Positions 1,641 through 29,838 of a stretch of 36,345 nucleotides of DNA are shown here, piece after piece (the first letter of the stretch is position 1; every line of letters begins with the position of its first letter). The notes under the pieces are model-generated. The model saw only the letters and a program-made list of their open reading frames with translations, was not told the DNA's origin and did no database searches. The translations under genes were made by a program, and so were the position numbers. Source of the DNA: a virus; the UHGV virus genome UHGV-0073579, one strand, 5' to 3'.

Positions 1641-1673
1641 GTCGTTAATTCCTATGCGTGGTTTTACGATACC

Positions 1674-1720
1674 GAAGCCCTGACTGTTCCCGCAGTTGGG
1701 GCTTCACTGTTTTGATTTCT
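1674..1720 (+). terminator. Plus-strand hairpin plus T-rich tract between ant and arc (possible terminator of a sar-like antisense RNA)
   Basis: gaagccc...gggcttc stem followed by actgttttgatttctttg on the plus strand; no T-run on the minus strand. Confidence 0.35.
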
Positions 1721-3849: not shown

Positions 3850-4223
3850 AAACATACCTCCATCTTGATAGCCGCAGCTATGTATACAACTGTGTCAAGT
3901 TGCATTTAATACCATAACAAAGCTGTCATCAATCCTTCAGAGGCTAACTTACAACCACTTTCTCGACACGTTTAAATCATTACGTTTCACATTTACTGCA
4001 TTTTCGCCGAAGTTACCTATAAGGTAATGTCACATTTCCTGCAAGTTTCATGCAATGTTGAAAAGTGAGCTATTCACTTTTCTATGACACTAAACACCAA
4101 AAATAGCACTTTTTGCTAAATCATTAGTCCAAGTTGTGGATGGTTTGTCGTTGACACGTTTTCACACACCACTCCACCAATACAGTATCATCTGGTATCC
4201 TGCTCAAAACTAAGGAGGTTGGT

Positions 4224-4451
4224 GTGAAGCGATGGTTCCTCATAATTACTGTTTTCGCGATCATTTACACTATTTTCCCTGCATTAAAAGCACCAATGCA
4301 AATAATTTCGCTAGCAATAATTGCAATTGGTGCTTTCATTGCAGTAGCCGTACTTGTGTTTAAGGTTTTAAAGTTTTTAGTTTGGCTATCAAAAGATGAT
4401 GGATGCAAAGTTCATCAAGAAAAAGAAGGCAAAATAACCAAAGTTGACTAA
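4224..4451 (+). CDS. Small predicted membrane protein (two hydrophobic helices)
   Basis: GTG start with strong RBS taaggagg 5 nt upstream; 75 aa with two hydrophobic stretches; divergent from the Panacea operon. Confidence 0.55.
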   Translation: MKRWFLIITVFAIIYTIFPALKAPMQIISLAIIAIGAFIAVAVLVFKVLKFLVWLSKDDGCKVHQEKEGKITKVD

Positions 4452-6571
4452 CTGTCACTAGCGAGCCATGTAATAATCCCCGTGCGGGCAATGGTTTTTG
4501 CTTCATCTGTTGATAAGGTTTTCTCCCATCTCTTAAATGCCCCAGATTGCATCAGTTTCCTTTCTATTACGCGTCTCACTTCTGCTCTGTCTACTGGTGC
4601 GTTTTGCAGGCGAAATAGCATTGATTTAAACTCAGGAGAAGACAGTAGAGCATCAGCAGCCTTTATCCTGCTTGTTTTCCCTGACATCAATGCTGACGTT
4701 ATCACCCCTGTTGCACCTACACCAGGAAGACCAGATAAGCTTGTAATACCTTCCGCCGCAGCGGCTTTTGAGGCTATTCCATAAATTTTTGCGAGACTAC
4801 CCTTTTCTTTCAGAAAGTTATTAACTTGCTGATCCACAAGACTACTAGCATACTGCTTACCAGTATTGAGTCTATTCATAGCCTTAGCTGCTTGATAAAT
4901 CGTATCAAGGCGCTTTGATGCATCTGTGCCAATAGCATCACGGAGAGCCTTCATATTGGCCCCATTGCGTGACATTCCGTTATACCATTTTACAAATCCA
5001 TCAACTCCTAATTGCTGACCAGGTGATTTGGCATAGCTGGTAAATGCTTTATTCATTGAGGTGAGCGCAACTTCCTGCCGCATATCCTTTGGAATCGACT
5101 TCATTAATTGCCTAAAGTCGCCACCGTTTCCTTTTGCCATATTAACAACAGCACTTTCAACTTTTGGAATTGCTGATTGCTGAAGTTTTCTACCCAAGAC
5201 GGTTACAGCATCATCTTCAATGGATTTTCGTTTTTTTACCAACTCCTTACCAAGCGTCCATAATTCCCCTGCGCCATATTTTTCTGCGACAGCCTGTTGG
5301 TCATCTGTTATGGCTGCATATAACTTTTTAAGAACACCTGTTTCTTCATCCTTGAATGGACCAGAGCCTTTGCCAATAGCTTGTCCAACCTGCTTTCTAG
5401 CGAGATCTAAACGCCCATACGTTGGCAAGGTGTTTGGATCAAGTCGGTTCAATGTCCGCTTCATTATTGGAGATAATTCATCAATTCCACCTATGTCATC
5501 AGCAAAATCCTCTAAAAAATTCAATGTATTAGTTGCCTCAATCCGGTCTCTTACAGGAACCTTTTCGGCAATTTTGTTGTAGATGTTATCTGACTGATTT
5601 TGTAATGATGAAATGGTTTTATCAAAATTATCTGCAAGCCTGTCAGAAACCAGTTGCTTATCAAGGCTTCCCCCAAATGAAGTTATCATTTCATCAGCTT
5701 TTCTTCCTAATTCAGTAATAAAACGCTTATGCGCCTCACTAATCTCTGTTCCAGGGAGACTTGCCACTGCATTATCAAGAGCCCTGACAGCAGGATTATT
5801 AGAGATCATGCCAGGAGTGGCATAATTTTCCAGTTCTAGCTCACGAATAGCATTTATCGCGTTAAAATCAGGATTAACTTCATCGGCGAAATCTTGAATA
5901 GCTCGTTGCCCGCCGATAAATTTATTGTCCATTGCGCCAGCAGCTTTCTTTAACGTTGCTTTAGATGATTTACTACCCATCCCTACGGATGAGCGATAAA
6001 TATCTCCGGCACTATTTTTAATTTTTCCTGCAATCTTCCCAAACGCTGGACCAACAATCTCTGCTACAGGGCCAGCCACAGCGCCAATAGCAGCTCCAGA
6101 AGCAACATCGCTATTTGTTCCATTGGCTACAATAGCCCCTTCTCCAGCACCAAGCCCTGCGGCGGCAGCCAGCCTTGCCGCCCCTTTCGGAACCTGAGAA
6201 ATAATCCCACCACCACTAACAAATGGTGCTGCTTGTCCAACGAACTCACCAACATCTTGTGCGGTTGATGGTTTTGCCGCTAACTTCTGCTGTAGAGACT
6301 GAATTGCGGCTTGCTCTTCTGGTGTCATATCCTGAAATAGACCAACACCTTTACCAACATCCATCAATCCACTGAGAACGCCATACATAAAACGGTCGAA
6401 GCCGTTAGCATTATTAACAACATTTTCCTGTCTGGAATTTTCCTCTGGTGAAACCAAAGGTGATTGCTGCTGCTCTGCTTGGGAATCAAGCACAAAACCA
6501 TCAGGAAGCTGTGAGTTATCAGGCTGATTATCGAGAACAAATCCTTCGGGTAAACCTACATCGGTTGCCAT
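4448..6571 (-). CDS. Ejection (internal) protein, P22 gp16-like
   Basis: 707-aa ORF immediately downstream of the gp20-like gene in the conserved gene order; Gly/Ala-rich. Confidence 0.65.
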
Positions 6572-20505: not shown

Positions 20506-20581
20506 TGGTGCTGGTTAACGGACTTGAACCGCTACCCATTCGCTTACAAGGCGACTGCTCTACCATTGGAGCTAAACCAGC
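20506..20581 (-). tRNA. tRNA-Thr (anticodon UGU)
   Basis: Hand-folded 76-nt cloverleaf: acceptor GCTGGTT/AACCAGC, D-arm GCTC-CAATGGTA-GAGC, anticodon loop CTTGTAA, T-arm AGCGG-TTCAAGT-CCGTT, 3' ACCA; one G-A mismatch in anticodon stem. Confidence 0.6.
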
Positions 20582-20586
20582 ATGTT

Positions 20587-20661
20587 TGGCGGGACAGCGT
20601 GGACTCGAACCACGATAAGAAGGTTAACAGCCTTCCGTAATGACCTTTATATGACTGACCC
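20587..20661 (-). tRNA. tRNA-like element, Asn-type anticodon arm (GUU), aberrant D-arm; possibly a pseudo-tRNA
   Basis: T-arm CGTGG-TTCGAGT-CCACG and anticodon arm GAAGG-CTGTTAA-CCTTC match tRNA-Asn; acceptor has one T-T mismatch; D-stem does not pair. Confidence 0.4.
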
Positions 20662-21241: not shown

Positions 21242-21426
21242 CGTCTTCCCCTTTTGCCCTGTTTGACCATCAGGACGCCGTTAACTATTACGTGACGCTC
21301 GCCTTTGCTGTCTCGGTTGTACTTGAGCACTGTTCCTCTTGCGCAGGAAAGCATCCTCGCAACTTCGGTCTGATTGCCTCGTGTCTGAATAAGAAGATCT
21401 GGTATCGTTTGAATTGTGGCGTTCAT
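21238..21426 (-). CDS. ninH: NinH-like protein
   Basis: 62 aa; IPDLLIQTRGNQTEVARMLSCARGTVLKY resembles lambda NinH. Confidence 0.75.
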   Translation of the reverse strand: MNATIQTIPDLLIQTRGNQTEVARMLSCARGTVLKYNRDSKGERHVIVNGVLMVKQGKRGRR

Positions 21427-21785
21427 ACGCTCTCCAGTTCGGTGATTTTTATTCCAAGCCGTCCGCCTGGTACTTTCACACCACGAATTACGCGAATGTC
21501 ATCGAATTGCTCGTCGTCTTCCGCAAATCCGGCGTGGATAAGGGAGTCGAGTAAACCTTTCAGGATGTTGTCGAGGTCGCGGCGGCGGGAGTCTGGAACG
21601 TCTGCGATAACTTTGATGCGGAGTCGTGATTTGGTGAAAATGTCTAACTTAAGTTGGCGGATAATTTGCTGAACGTCTTTTCGGTATTTCTGGCCTTTAT
21701 CGCTGATGTAATATTGGCTTCCCCGTCTTCGCCAGTAGGTGTTCACCGACGGCGGGTATGGAAGCACAAACTGATATTCGTTCAT
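21423..21785 (-). CDS. rusA: Holliday junction resolvase RusA
   Basis: 120 aa; LPYPPSVNTYW...DSRRRDLDNILKGLLDSL...GGRLGIKITE matches RusA. Confidence 0.9.
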   Translation of the reverse strand: MNEYQFVLPYPPSVNTYWRRRGSQYYISDKGQKYRKDVQQIIRQLKLDIFTKSRLRIKVIADVPDSRRRDLDNILKGLLDSLIHAGFAEDDEQFDDIRVIRGVKVPGGRLGIKITELESV

Positions 21786-22060
21786 TGGACAAACACCCTC
21801 CCATTGTTAACCAATTTTTTGAGGGTAAGCACAATGGCCCGATCCATTTCAGCCCTTCGCTCTTCCCTGCTCATATCTCTCCCATTATCAATTCTTGAAT
21901 GACAATCAACACATAGCGCAGCAGTAAGGCAATCATCTACTTTAATCCCAACCCCCTTCCCTTCATTTCTGTGAGCGGCCTGAACTCCGTATCTTCCGCA
22001 AAGAACGCAAAATTCAATATCCCTGACTGCCTGAAGCCATTTTTTGCTTCTAAACATCAA
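21782..22060 (-). CDS. Cys-rich small protein (DUF1364-like), commonly paired with rusA
   Basis: 92 aa with CVLC...C...CVDCH cysteine pattern; ends 4 nt inside the rusA start. Confidence 0.5.
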   Translation of the reverse strand: MMFRSKKWLQAVRDIEFCVLCGRYGVQAAHRNEGKGVGIKVDDCLTAALCVDCHSRIDNGRDMSREERRAEMDRAIVLTLKKLVNNGRVFVQ

Positions 22061-22559
22061 TCCCCTCCAAAAAACGTCGGTACGCTGATTTGTTTTTTAT
22101 GTTGCACACTGTCTGCGCACAAACACCAAATTCTTTGGCTATATCTCTGTATTTGCCTTTTGATTTATATATTGATTTCACTTGTTCTGGCGTTAGTTTG
22201 CAGAAGTGATGATTAAAACCATGAACAAGCAACCCGGAATCAAATCCATGTTTAGCATTTTCTGTTCGCGTTACCCACTCGAGATTTTCAACTTTATTAT
22301 TAAGTTTATTTCCATCCTTGTGATTAACTTCCGGTTTGCCATCTGGGTTATCAATAAATACTTCTGCAACAATTCTGTGAACCATTTTATATGATGGTCT
22401 TTTCCCGCCACCTGGATACAGACCGACAAATGCATATCCTCCTGGTTTAATACCATGAGATAATTTTTTTGATTTACGGCATGAAATGATGTCTCCATTT
22501 TCAGTTACTTTATATATACCCTCAAAGCCGGGGATATCTTTTTCTTTAACATCACTCAT
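22050..22559 (-). CDS. HNH homing endonuclease (NUMOD4-like N-terminus, C-terminal HTH)
   Basis: 169 aa; GFEGIYKVTENGDIIS; HNH core EVNHKDGNKLNNKVENLEWVTRTENAKHG. Confidence 0.85.
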   Translation of the reverse strand: MSDVKEKDIPGFEGIYKVTENGDIISCRKSKKLSHGIKPGGYAFVGLYPGGGKRPSYKMVHRIVAEVFIDNPDGKPEVNHKDGNKLNNKVENLEWVTRTENAKHGFDSGLLVHGFNHHFCKLTPEQVKSIYKSKGKYRDIAKEFGVCAQTVCNIKNKSAYRRFLEGIDV

Positions 22560-22728
22560 CGTCTTCTTCCTCGTACATTGAGCTATTCGGATCGCTCATC
22601 AGTTCTGCGCAGCAGTGCTCACACACGTGAACTTCCAGCACATGCAGCTTCTGACCGCAGTTAGCGCACGTTAAAGCTCGCTCGACGCTTTCTTTCTGGT
22701 ATTGAAGAGATTGGGATGGACTAAGCAT
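22552..22728 (-). CDS. ninF: NinF-like protein
   Basis: 58-aa ORF below the track cut-off, translated by hand: [58 protein letters not shown]. Confidence 0.7.
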   Translation of the reverse strand: MLSPSQSLQYQKESVERALTCANCGQKLHVLEVHVCEHCCAELMSDPNSSMYEEEDDE

Positions 22729-23146
22729 TATTAGCGTCCTGCATCATGAGAAAGACAATCATGGCGGCGCGGAGAGGCGATTCGCCACAGAAGTAGTAGC
22801 CAGGAATATTTTCCCATTCCCAACAACCTTCCTCTAAATCACCTCCTGACCATGCGCACCATTCTTTTTCCGCTGTCATCCACATAGTGCTGATTTTGCT
22901 TTCAGTGATAATTGGCCACGCGTATTCAGGATTATTGCAAGGATTGAAGCAATTCCCGTTTGAAGAACGGAAGCCATTAATATCCCTTTTTTGCGTCTGC
23001 CAAATAGGACCTCTTTCGTCAGTGGGGATCTCAGAATCGAAGTCTGCTTCGTCATCAGGTATGAAGAAATGCTCCTCCATATCTAAAGCCTCACATACTC
23101 GTCTGTTAATTTCAAAATCACTTAACTGTGAATAATCCATTGTCAT
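22721..23146 (-). CDS. NinX-like (DUF2591-type) protein
   Basis: [25 protein letters not shown]...; start chosen at the ATG overlapping the ninE stop (ATGA); alternative start 6 nt downstream has better SD spacing. Confidence 0.55.
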
Positions 23147-23319
23147 TTCCTCGCACGATGTCTTAGCCACCGGATATCCCACAGGTGAGCCGTGTAATTG
23201 AAGGTTTTTACGTCAGATTCTTTTGGGATTGGCTTGCGTTTATTTCTGGAGCGTTTCGTTGGAAGGTATTTGCAGTTTTCGCAGATTATGTCGGTGATGC
23301 TTCGTCGCTGTCGTCTCAT
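23143..23319 (-). CDS. ninE: NinE-like protein
   Basis: [52 protein letters not shown] recalled as lambda NinE; start directly after the ninB stop. Confidence 0.65.
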
Positions 23320-28979: not shown

Positions 28980-28990
28980 GAGGAATTAAT

Positions 28991-29614
28991 ATGTCATCAA
29001 TCCGCTTAACTACGAGAATGAAAGAGAAAATCGCTCGTAACGCTTTAATTAAGTCTGGGGTTTTCACTGAACTTGAAGAAGTAACAAAGTTAAAGAACCA
29101 GCTTGCACTTGACGCCAGAGTTATTGCGTTTGGCGGTAAAAAGAAAACTGAGGAAGTGGATCAGTTATCATCCAGGTTAGTAGCTATAAGTGAAGAACTT
29201 GAAAAGATGGGATGTTCATTTTACTCATACGATGTTCGTTCTACTTCAATTTATCTGACTGTATCTGGCAGAAGGGTTGGATGGCATTCATATGGGAAAG
29301 ACGGCAACGGCGAAGATATATTGCTCCCTACTCCAACCAAAGATAAATGCATGTTTGATGCAGAACACGAAATAACAAAAAGGTTTGATGAAATCTGCGC
29401 ATTGCAACAAAAACTTGAAGCCAAGAAAAAGGATATCGAATCAAATGTATGGGCTGCTTTGAACTCAGTCACAACAGTTAAGCGACTTATTGAAGTTTGG
29501 CCTGAAAGCAAAGAATTGCTACCAAAAGAAGCAGACAAAGCAAGTACAGCACTTCCTGCTTTACGGGTAGAAGATTTGAATAAGATGATTGGACTTCCTT
29601 CCGAGTCCGCATAG
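28991..29614 (+). CDS. Hypothetical 207-aa protein, first gene after N
   Basis: ATG at 28991 with GAGAGGAA RBS; no family recognised. Confidence 0.55.
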   Translation: MSSIRLTTRMKEKIARNALIKSGVFTELEEVTKLKNQLALDARVIAFGGKKKTEEVDQLSSRLVAISEELEKMGCSFYSYDVRSTSIYLTVSGRRVGWHSYGKDGNGEDILLPTPTKDKCMFDAEHEITKRFDEICALQQKLEAKKKDIESNVWAALNSVTTVKRLIEVWPESKELLPKEADKASTALPALRVEDLNKMIGLPSESA

Positions 29615-29838
29615 TCGGCCTTTATTTTTGGCACTAACAACAGAATAAACACTGCACTGTGTATTCATTCCAACGAGTGAATACACGGAGCAATGTCGCT
29701 CTTAACTAAACAGGAGCCGACTTGTTCTGATTATTGGAAATCTTCTTTGCCCTCCAGTGTGAGGGCTTTTTTATATGCATACCAATAACGCTTCACTCGA
29801 GGCGTTTTCGTTATGCAATCAAATATAAGGAGTTACCC

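What the first reader, a model, noticed from the sequence alone, without database searches (positions are those of the whole stretch)
22050..22559. Free-standing HNH homing endonuclease inserted in the nin region
A 169-aa protein with a complete HNH motif and C-terminal HTH lies between ninF and the DUF1364/rusA genes, overlapping both neighbours by a few codons. Free-standing HNH endonucleases are mobile selfish elements; its presence inside an otherwise lambda-like nin block suggests a homing-mediated insertion and a local recombination hotspot. Codon composition is visibly more AT-rich than its neighbours.
Basis: partly seen in the sequence, partly recalled or inferred. Interest (0 to 1): 0.5.

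Follow-up and report, generated by a model that had tools for sequence, protein, structure and literature searches.

The report
Mobile HNH nuclease gene in prophage
A small AT-rich gene in the nin region of a P22-like E. coli prophage encodes an I-HmuI-type HNH endonuclease, a common kind of selfish phage passenger gene; it is rare among relatives and is always found next to a small nuclease gene, with which it appears to move as a pair.

Summary
Window 22050-22559 (minus strand) is an intact 169-aa ORF with NUMOD4 and HNH_3 domains. A confident model matches I-HmuI over its whole length, including a C-terminal helix-turn-helix. Its GC is 0.365 (GC3 0.27), against 0.44-0.50 in the neighbouring genes. 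It overlaps ninF and the downstream gene by 8 nt each.

The gene is sporadic. It occurs in 2 of 405 phage records that match the ninX-rusA query, and in 34 of 5426 complete E. coli genomes, whereas ninF occurs in 1694.

The interpretation needs refining, because this is not a clean single-gene insertion. The HNH gene is linked to the 91-aa YbcO/DUF1364-like gene downstream, here called D*. Together they form a 765-bp block that replaces the usual gp66-type DUF1364 gene exactly between the ninF stop and the rusA start.

Relatives of 58-75% identity sampled in Escherichia, Salmonella, Klebsiella, Citrobacter and metagenomes sit next to D* or another gene of that superfamily. Most relatives above about 59% identity carry the first 15 codons of a gp66-type gene fused to their start. 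D* itself usually occurs without the HNH gene.

Degenerate copies exist. Endonuclease activity, target site and homing are untested. This is an uncharacterised member of a known kind, of modest interest.

The parts
22050..22559 (-). Gene for a 169-aa I-HmuI-like HNH endonuclease (NUMOD4 + HNH_3 + C-terminal HTH)
   Evidence: ORF. Pfam. PHROG 59 'HNH endonuclease', E = 7.6e-51. PDB 1U3E by sequence and by fold. PGAP names the 100%-identical DNA in NZ_CP031215 'NUMOD4 motif-containing HNH endonuclease'.
22416..22541 (-). NUMOD4 N-terminal beta-sheet DNA-binding module (aa 7-48)
   Evidence: Pfam PF07463, 29.2 bits against a cut-off of 23.4. The model shows strands at aa 6-8, 16-19, 24-26 and 43-47.
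22254..22388 (-). HNH_3 beta-beta-alpha-metal catalytic motif (aa 58-102). N79-H80 are encoded at 22320-22325 and N101 at 22257-22259.
   Evidence: Pfam PF13392. The alignment to I-HmuI places H80 opposite its His75 and N101 opposite its Asn96. N79, H80, N101 and H104 are invariant in 44 homologues.
22062..22190 (-). C-terminal helical / helix-turn-helix DNA-binding domain (aa 124-166)
   Evidence: Model helices at aa 124-132, 137-144, 148-155 and 161-166. The whole-length Foldseek match to 1U3E, plus weak hits to sigma-4, resolvase and NarL HTH domains.
21782..22057 (-). D*: a 91-aa divergent YbcO/DUF1364/DUF968-type His-Me-finger gene that is the constant partner of the HNH gene. Its ATG (22057) and Shine-Dalgarno sequence (GGAGGGG) lie inside the HNH 3' end.
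   Evidence: ORF. Sub-threshold DUF968 and YbcO hits. PHROG 131. Linked to the HNH gene in 34 of 37 E. coli genomes and in all sampled relatives of 60-75% identity.
21786..22550 (-). 765-bp block (HNH + D*) with no homology to ninF-bearing relatives that carry a gp66-type DUF1364 gene in this slot
   Evidence: blastn breakpoints are 22551 and 21785 against phiv205-1 and 683R2, and 22546 and 21785 against HK97.
22552..22728 (-). ninF, the upstream neighbour. Its last 8 nt (ATGAGTGA) contain the HNH start codon. The same ATG starts roi and other cassettes in relatives.
   Evidence: Pfam NinF. Junction comparison.
21423..21785 (-). rusA, the downstream neighbour, where homology with relatives resumes
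   Evidence: Pfam RusA. blastn.

Best explanation
The ORF encodes an I-HmuI-type HNH (His-Me finger) DNA endonuclease. It is a free-standing homing-endonuclease-type selfish gene.

It belongs to a clade found in enterobacterial lambdoid and P22-like prophages that is specialised on the small YbcO/DUF1364-type nuclease slot of the nin region. In this window it forms a promoter-less two-gene cassette: the HNH gene plus D*, a divergent 91-aa YbcO-like gene. The cassette occupies the position that a gp66-type DUF1364 gene holds in most relatives.

Proposed mechanism (inferred):
1. The gene is transcribed with the early-right operon and translated by coupling to ninF.
2. The monomer binds a long asymmetric site through its NUMOD4 sheet and C-terminal HTH.
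3. It nicks or cuts cassette-free alleles of this slot in a co-infecting or resident lambdoid phage. The most likely site is the 5' end of gp66-type genes, around codons 10-16.
4. Recombinational repair copies HNH together with D*. The target gene is replaced by an uncleavable functional substitute. This resembles intronless homing and marker exclusion in T-even phages.

What is shown: the domain architecture, conserved catalytic residues, sporadic distribution, foreign base composition, the HNH-D* linkage, the fused gp66 remnants and the decayed copies.

What is inferred: the enzyme activity, the target site and the gene conversion.
For: Architecture: NUMOD4 + HNH_3. I-HmuI is the best sequence match and the only significant fold match, over 165 of 169 residues. 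The catalytic N-H...N...H residues are invariant. dN is 0.25-0.35 while dS is saturated, so selection has been purifying over long periods.

Selfish-element signature:
- GC3 is 0.27, in the lowest 0.07% of windows.
- The gene is in 2 of 405 phage records that match the ninX-rusA query.
- It is in 34 of 5426 E. coli genomes, against 1694 with ninF and 955 with gp66-type genes.
- It occurs in different replication-module backgrounds.
- One copy has a 330-nt in-frame deletion and one is truncated.
- The region has no promoter, terminator, intron or flanking repeats.

Slot specificity:
- All sampled relatives of 60-75% identity are followed by a D* homologue of 62-79% identity. This holds whatever lies upstream (NinF, 81-, 82- and 100-aa ORFs, a methylase, DUF1367) or downstream (RusA or Q).
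- More distant relatives abut RecA_dep_nuc/DUF968 or YbcO genes.
- D* is usually HNH-free: only 1 of 56 species-representative loci has the HNH gene. NUMOD4-HNH genes below 50% identity are not D*-linked.

Target hint:
- Most of the retrieved relatives above about 59% identity begin with MANLRKEARGRECQV or a close variant, which is the gp66 N-terminus.
- The corresponding 45-nt remnant travels with the cassette behind three unrelated upstream genes.
- In strain QML220601 an independent illegitimate junction lies at gp66 codon 10. There roi is retained and a ninF 3' remnant is carried in.

Precedents: T4 Seg and Mob intronless homing and marker exclusion (PMC2988022). An HNH homing-endonuclease gene fused in frame to a resident gene's N-terminus in phage epsilon34 (PMC2629481).
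Against: - No activity, target or conversion data exist for this protein or any close relative.
- There is no isogenic empty site. The three HNH-free copies of this D* allele have an unrelated upstream module.
- All block boundaries coincide with gene boundaries, as in ordinary lambdoid mosaicism.
- HNH and D* divergence is roughly parallel (70/78, 64/62, 60/64%). This fits long co-inheritance as well as it fits repeated homing.
- The metal-ligand Asp74 of I-HmuI is Asn here. It is invariant in the clade, but the substitution is untested.
- The gp66 remnant could instead derive from a deletion that fused an upstream YbcO gene to the HNH gene. The Basfia order YbcO-HNH-RusA makes this possible.
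- This window's copy has no remnant at all.
- E. coli genome counts are inflated by clonal redundancy.
Confidence: 0.6

Rival explanations
1. Passive mosaic module. HNH-D* is just one of many alternative nin-region cassettes, shuffled by ordinary homologous and illegitimate recombination at gene boundaries. The endonuclease no longer drives, or never drove, its own spread in these phages.
For: - Breakpoints lie exactly at gene boundaries, and every nin gene junction is a breakpoint in some comparison.
- The slot after ninF holds roi, 70-aa and 89-aa ORFs, ninG or other HNH genes in relatives.
- All these cassettes use the same ATGAGTGA start.
- HNH and D* have co-diverged.
- The cassette is rare rather than sweeping.
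Against: - The catalytic and DNA-binding residues are strictly conserved, and most copies are intact (32 of 34).
- The persistent association with one gene superfamily across genera, with changing flanks, is hard to obtain by random shuffling.
- The illegitimate junction in QML220601 retained roi, although homologous ninF lay upstream.
Confidence: 0.2
2. Competition or exclusion weapon. The nuclease mainly serves its phage by nicking the DNA of co-infecting or superinfecting lambdoid phages. This would resemble the I-HmuI-like nickase NixI of Vibrio PLE. Gene conversion would be a by-product.
For: - The fold is that of I-HmuI, a nicking enzyme.
- A paper title and abstract describe an I-HmuI-like nicking effector used against a phage (PMC9410903, listed).
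- PADLOC contains 'HEase' models that match the protein, E = 9.7e-25.
- The gene sits in an early operon, so the protein would be present during replication.
Against: - PADLOC labels the matching models simply as homing endonucleases, and no defence-system partner lies nearby.
- The gene is in the early-right operon, so it is probably silent in the lysogen. It is therefore not a classical prophage exclusion gene.
- Its rarity and decayed copies argue against strong benefit to the host phage.
Confidence: 0.12
3. Functional partner in phage DNA metabolism. The HNH protein would work with D*, RusA and NinB in recombination, or with terminase in packaging, as HK97 gp74-type HNH proteins do.
For: - It is tightly linked and translationally coupled to a putative nuclease gene, next to rusA and ninB.
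- Many phages need an HNH protein for packaging (abstract of PMC3592412, listed).
Against: - The terminase gene lies about 4.3 kb away, beyond Q, two tRNA genes and the lysis genes. The phage is P22-like.
- The family is HNH_3/NUMOD4, not the terminase-associated HNH type.
- About 98% of ninF-bearing loci, and most D* genes, lack the HNH gene.
- Phages with truncated copies persist.
Confidence: 0.05

Closest known systems
I-HmuI (Bacillus phage SPO1 DNA-polymerase intron; PDB 1U3E)
   Same: Same size (169 aa against 174 aa) and the same three-part architecture: an N-terminal NUMOD4 sheet, an HNH beta-beta-alpha-metal motif and a C-terminal HTH. Sequence match E = 8.9e-19. Fold match over 165 columns. 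The catalytic His and Asn align.
   Different: About 29% identity overall. Free-standing rather than intron-encoded. Asn replaces the metal-ligand Asp74. The host is a temperate P22-like coliphage. The target and the type of cut (nick or double-strand break) are unknown.
T4 free-standing homing endonucleases (Mob HNH and Seg GIY-YIG; intronless homing and marker exclusion)
   Same: A promoter-less intergenic cassette embedded in an existing operon. Sporadic among related phages. Adjacent to a conserved gene that is the likely target. Flanking DNA is expected to be co-converted (PMC2988022).
   Different: Here the neighbouring gene is not a slightly polymorphic resistant allele. It is a gene only 27% identical to the usual occupant of the slot, so the whole target gene would be replaced. 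Most clade members are translated as fusions to the first 15 codons of the displaced gene.
Salmonella phage epsilon34 gene 31 (in-frame fusion of the eaE N-terminus to an HNH homing endonuclease)
   Same: A P22-like phage in which an HNH homing-endonuclease ORF is fused in frame to the N-terminus of the resident gene at its insertion point (PMC2629481). This parallels the gp66'-HNH fusions in this clade.
   Different: A different operon (early-left), a different resident gene, and a different HNH lineage (its relatives are in Lactobacillus phages). No companion replacement gene was described.
Other nin-region HNH_3/AP2-type genes of lambdoid prophages
   Same: AT-rich (GC 0.35-0.45), sporadic, free-standing HNH genes wedged at nin gene junctions: gp66|rusA in MS6192, ninF|ninG in ETEC1703, Q|holin in AH19B041, ninB|ninD in SEN22.
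   Different: Only the HNH core is detectably similar (blastp E from 2e-10 to 0.13, aligning 25-69 residues). They show no NUMOD4+HTH architecture and no D* linkage.

Membership tests
I-HmuI-like HNH homing endonucleases (Pfam HNH_3 with NUMOD4; His-Me finger group 2) | HNH_3 beta-beta-alpha-metal motif with the catalytic His and the metal-binding Asn | tested here: met
   PF13392 scores 42.2 bits, above the 24.8 cut-off. H80 and N101 align with His75 and Asn96 of 1U3E. They are invariant in 44 homologues. Asp74 of I-HmuI is Asn79 here, also invariant.
I-HmuI-like HNH homing endonucleases (Pfam HNH_3 with NUMOD4; His-Me finger group 2) | Modular DNA-binding domains flanking the nuclease (N-terminal NUMOD4 sheet, C-terminal HTH) | tested here: met
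   PF07463 scores 29.2 bits, above the 23.4 cut-off. The model has pLDDT 93.5 with C-terminal helices. Foldseek matches 1U3E over 165 columns with probability 1.00.
I-HmuI-like HNH homing endonucleases (Pfam HNH_3 with NUMOD4; His-Me finger group 2) | Site-specific nicking or cleavage of a long target in endonuclease-free alleles | not testable with these tools
   This requires purified protein and substrates: the gp66-type 5' region, HNH-free D* loci and the enzyme's own locus.
Free-standing homing endonuclease genes (intronless homing) | Not inside an intron or intein; an own ORF between intact host genes | tested here: met
   No Rfam intron in the window. ninF, D* and rusA are intact ORFs.
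Free-standing homing endonuclease genes (intronless homing) | Sporadic presence or absence among otherwise homologous genomes, with foreign base composition | tested here: met
   2 of 405 phage records. 36 places against 2117 ninF places in E. coli. GC3 0.27.
Free-standing homing endonuclease genes (intronless homing) | A cognate empty site: the same flanks on both sides without the gene | tested here: inconclusive
   On the right, HNH-free D* at 98.5% identity exists in 3 genomes, but with an unrelated left flank. On the left, ninF-bearing genomes carry gp66-type or other cassettes instead of D*. No isogenic pair was found.
Free-standing homing endonuclease genes (intronless homing) | Endonuclease-dependent, super-Mendelian inheritance with co-conversion of flanks | not testable with these tools
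   This needs phage crosses. The only indirect hints are the illegitimate junctions in the gp66 5' end.
Terminase-associated HNH proteins (HK97 gp74 type) | Gene adjacent to terminase/cos; HNH (PF01844)-type zinc-binding motif | tested here: not met
   By the annotation of a record about 97% identical to the window, the terminase gene lies about 4.3 kb away beyond Q, tRNA and lysis genes. The Pfam family is HNH_3, and the protein has no CxxC pairs.
Transposon or IS-borne nuclease | Terminal inverted repeats or target-site duplication flanking the unit | tested here: not met
   There are no direct repeats, and only one weak internal inverted repeat, in 21300-23300.

The most novel reading that the evidence does not exclude
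The HNH gene and D* may form a 'target-replacement' homing cassette. In this reading an I-HmuI-like endonuclease cuts the 5' end of the common gp66/YbcO-type nuclease gene of lambdoid phages. It spreads by replacing that gene with itself plus a non-homologous, uncleavable functional substitute (D*). A 15-codon stub of the victim gene remains as its own translation start. This would be a homing element that carries a spare copy of the function it destroys, conserved across several enterobacterial genera.
Probability: 0.3. Interest if true: 0.55.

Novelty: new member of a known kind. Interest (0 to 1): 0.3.

Why it matters
Free-standing homing endonucleases have been studied mainly in T-even and other virulent phages. 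Their role in shaping the mosaic genomes of temperate lambdoid phages has been little tested.

If this clade cleaves gp66/YbcO-type genes and drags a substitute gene along, it would give a concrete, testable mechanism for one class of non-homologous 'allele replacement' at lambdoid gene boundaries. It would also provide a new I-HmuI-type enzyme with a defined natural target.

As it stands, this is an uncharacterised but recognisable member of a very common family, and PGAP already names it correctly in RefSeq genomes.

Tried and rejected
- NCBIfam gave no hit for either protein.
- A sequence search of the PDB with the D* profile found nothing meaningful.
- The IMG/VR scan with the HNH alignment returned almost only relatives below 50% identity. 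None is D*-linked, so it added no further contexts for the clade.
- dN/dS could not be computed because dS is saturated. Only dN and two D* ratios (0.14 and 0.18) were obtained.
- I looked for a gp66-like N-terminal motif upstream of HNH-free D* genes in 56 genomes. There is none, so the remnant belongs to the HNH gene, not to D*.
- An intron-encoded origin is rejected (no Rfam intron).
- A transposon origin is rejected (no terminal repeats).
- A packaging HNH role is rejected (far from terminase, different family).
- The best E. coli record (NZ_CP031215) is 100% identical in the HNH, ninF and D* genes. It differs from the window at 967 of the 36345 positions compared, so the window comes from a close relative, not from that record.
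- The sigma-70 promoter and intrinsic-terminator scan found nothing above chance around the gene.
Full report
1. What is there

Window 22050-22559 holds an intact 169-aa ORF on the minus strand. The gene order on that strand is: toprim primase-helicase, ninB, ninE, ninX, ninF (22552-22728), the ORF, a 91-aa gene (21782-22057), rusA (21423-21785), ninH, Q, tRNA-Asn, tRNA-Thr.

A record about 97% identical to the window is an E. coli P22-like prophage. PGAP annotates the same gene there as 'NUMOD4 motif-containing HNH endonuclease'. The window also carries the P22 sar antisense RNA.

The ORF's ATG lies inside the last 8 nt of ninF (ATGAGTGA). Its last codons contain the ATG and the GGAGGGG ribosome-binding site of the 91-aa gene. 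No promoter or terminator was found above chance. The gene is therefore a promoter-less, translationally coupled member of the early-right operon.

2. What the protein is

Pfam gives HNH_3 (42.2 bits) and NUMOD4 (29.2 bits), both above their cut-offs. PHROG 59 'HNH endonuclease' matches at E = 7.6e-51. The only solved relative by sequence is I-HmuI (1U3E), at E = 8.9e-19. In that alignment H80 falls on the catalytic His75 and N101 on the metal ligand Asn96.

An AlphaFold model built from 44 homologues has pLDDT 93.5. In Foldseek it matches 1U3E over 165 columns at E = 2.2e-10. The remaining hits are weak and fall on HTH domains.

N79, H80, N101 and H104 are invariant in the 44 sequences. Asp74 of I-HmuI is Asn here throughout the clade. 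dN to relatives is 0.25-0.35 while dS is saturated, so the protein has evolved under constraint.

3. Composition and distribution

GC is 0.365 and GC3 is 0.27. The neighbours have GC3 0.39-0.56. Only 0.07% of 510-nt windows in the 36 kb are as AT-rich.

In the phage collection, 405 records match the ninX-rusA query, but only two (Louie and Dewey) contain the gene. In 5426 complete E. coli genomes it occurs 36 times in 34 genomes. By comparison, ninF occurs 2117 times in 1694 genomes, and the gp66-type DUF1364 gene 1058 times in 955 genomes.

Two of the 34 copies are degenerate:
- AH19B041 has a 330-nt in-frame deletion that leaves 59 aa.
- EA7 is truncated to 94 aa.

There is no intron and no flanking repeat. 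All of this fits the life cycle of a free-standing homing endonuclease gene.

4. The unit is two genes, not one

Compared with ninF-bearing relatives (HK97, phiv205-1, 683R2), homology ends at window 22551/22546, just past the ninF stop. It resumes only at 21785, the rusA start. The 765-bp foreign block therefore contains the HNH gene and the 91-aa gene.

That gene, here called D*, is only 27% identical to HK97 gp66. It fails the Pfam thresholds for YbcO/DUF1364 and DUF968. It does carry the CxxC...H...CxxCH pattern of that His-Me-finger group, which was classified as group 7 in PMC5714182.

The D* allele occurs in 37 E. coli genomes, and 34 of them have the HNH gene directly upstream. The other three (RM8082, NCTC9104 and DETEC-S565) have a different NinF-family gene overlapping D*. 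In RM8082 and NCTC9104, similarity to the window begins at D* codon 4-5, at window 22048. DETEC-S565 was not fetched, but its blast match starts at the same query position. No isogenic empty site was found.

In QML220601 the order is ninF, roi, the first 10 codons of a gp66-type gene, then HNH-D*-rusA. Just upstream of the HNH start lies a stretch of about 26 nt that resembles the ninF 3' end.

5. The linkage is old and specific to this slot

Homologues of 60-75% identity were located in E. coli, Salmonella, Klebsiella aerogenes, Citrobacter koseri and metagenome contigs. In every one the next gene is a 91-aa D* homologue of 62-79% identity, overlapping by 8 or 14 nt. The upstream gene varies (NinF, 81-, 82- and 100-aa ORFs, a 658-aa methylase, DUF1367). 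The downstream gene is either RusA or a Q-like antiterminator.

More distant members abut other genes of the same superfamily:
- RecA_dep_nuc/DUF968 downstream (P0021, P0025).
- A full gp66-type YbcO downstream (P0037).
- A gp66-type YbcO upstream, in Basfia (P0044).

NUMOD4-HNH genes below 50% identity in 79 IMG/VR contigs have no D* neighbour.

The converse does not hold. D* relatives in 56 species-representative genomes have the HNH gene in only one case, Superficieibacter. Phages SEN22, HK225 and ENT47670 carry D* alone.

So the HNH gene implies D*, but D* rarely implies the HNH gene. This is the pattern expected for an endonuclease gene tied to a particular host gene.

6. Remnant of the displaced gene

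Most of the retrieved relatives above about 59% identity start with MANLRKEARGRECQV or a close variant, which is the N-terminus of gp66-type proteins, fused in frame to the NUMOD4 domain. Five of the retrieved relatives in that range lack it. Weaker relatives of 44-55% identity have unrelated N-terminal extensions instead.

In three E. coli contigs the 45-nt remnant is 85-93% identical to HK97 or phiv205-1 gp66. It lies immediately behind three unrelated upstream genes, so the remnant moves with the cassette. The composite occupies exactly the gp66 slot, from start codon to rusA start.

HNH-free D* loci have no such motif. The window's own copy lacks the remnant and instead uses the ATG inside ninF.

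The QML220601 junction at gp66 codon 10 is a second, independent illegitimate junction. It lies in an imperfect ACG(C/A)GGA microhomology, about 15 nt from the clade-wide junction. It retained roi, although a homologous crossover in ninF was available.

I read these two junctions as a hint that breaks occur in the gp66 5' end. That would make it the likely target of the enzyme. This is inference only. A deletion fusing an upstream YbcO gene to the HNH gene, starting from the order seen in Basfia, could also have created the remnant.

7. Mechanism proposed

By analogy with I-HmuI and with T4 Seg and Mob genes (PMC2988022), the proposed sequence is as follows. The protein is made early in lytic growth. 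It binds a long asymmetric site and nicks or cuts cassette-free alleles of this slot in a co-infecting or resident lambdoid phage. Recombinational repair then copies HNH together with D*. In the closely related record, this prophage type encodes a Rad52-family annealing protein, SSB, NinB and RusA.

An in-frame fusion of an HNH homing-endonuclease gene to the N-terminus of a resident gene has been described in P22-like phage epsilon34 (PMC2629481).

My confidence that this is an I-HmuI-type endonuclease gene of the free-standing homing class is about 0.9. That it spreads, or spread, by homing: about 0.6. That the target is the gp66 5' end: about 0.3.

8. Rivals

- Ordinary mosaic shuffling without endonuclease drive (0.2). 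Every nin gene boundary is a breakpoint in some comparison, and the post-ninF slot holds many alternative cassettes.
- An inter-phage competition nickase, like PLE NixI (0.12). PADLOC matches only its generic 'homing endonuclease' models.
- A role with D* and RusA, or in packaging (0.05). This is disfavoured by the distance from terminase, the different family, and the absence of the gene from about 98% of ninF loci.

The claim of a special local recombination hotspot is not supported beyond the general mosaicism of the nin region.

9. Verdict

The gene is an uncharacterised member of a well-known family, already correctly named in RefSeq. Several unrelated AT-rich HNH genes sit at other nin junctions in relatives, so an endonuclease gene in this region is not surprising.

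The added value from this analysis is threefold: the conserved HNH-D* pairing, the fused gp66 stub, and the resulting testable prediction of a target site.

Noticed in passing
window 20506-20661 (minus strand): Two phage-borne tRNA genes, tRNA-Asn(GTT) and tRNA-Thr(TGT), lie between the Q antiterminator gene and the lysis genes. The same pair is annotated in relatives such as MS6192 and Es_ST80.
   Followed up: partly
window 1642-1708 (plus strand): An Rfam sar RNA (P22 immI antisense RNA) matches at 76.6 bits. In the closest record this region also has Arc-family genes, an antirepressor, a Clp protease subunit and a Panacea-domain protein. This marks the element as P22-like.
   Followed up: no
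window 3868-4522: This is the only other stretch of the window as AT-rich as the HNH gene (510-nt GC at or below about 0.375). By the closest record it lies near the Panacea-domain gene. It may be another recently acquired cassette.
   Followed up: no
L170:2088-2612; L171:1936-2502; L007:4033-4545; L157:466-1047; L010:1996-2544: Other free-standing HNH_3-type genes, mostly AT-rich (GC 0.35-0.45), sit at other junctions of lambdoid nin and late-regulatory regions: gp66|rusA, ninF|ninG, Q|holin, ninB|ninD, and one downstream of ninB. They resemble the window's protein only in the HNH core.
   Followed up: partly
L005:2329-2767 and L157:1341-1776: In the HNH-free D* loci (E. coli RM8082 and NCTC9104, Salmonella phage SEN22), a divergent 'NinF family' gene overlaps D* by 23 nt, and D* has two extra N-terminal residues (MAIYRSS...). 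This is a different way of coupling the same two gene families.
   Followed up: partly
window about 28990-29615 (by correspondence with L156:6732-7355): The closest annotated record has an 'Nmad5 family putative nucleotide modification protein' gene in the early-left region, next to anti-RecBCD, exonuclease, SSB and Rad52-family genes. It was not examined in the window itself.
   Followed up: no
L167:1711-2974 (Basfia succiniciproducens prophage): A 55%-identical relative of the HNH protein lies downstream of a full-length gp66-type YbcO gene and upstream of rusA. This is the opposite order to the enterobacterial cassettes, and it is a possible ancestral arrangement for the gp66'-HNH fusion.
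   Followed up: partly
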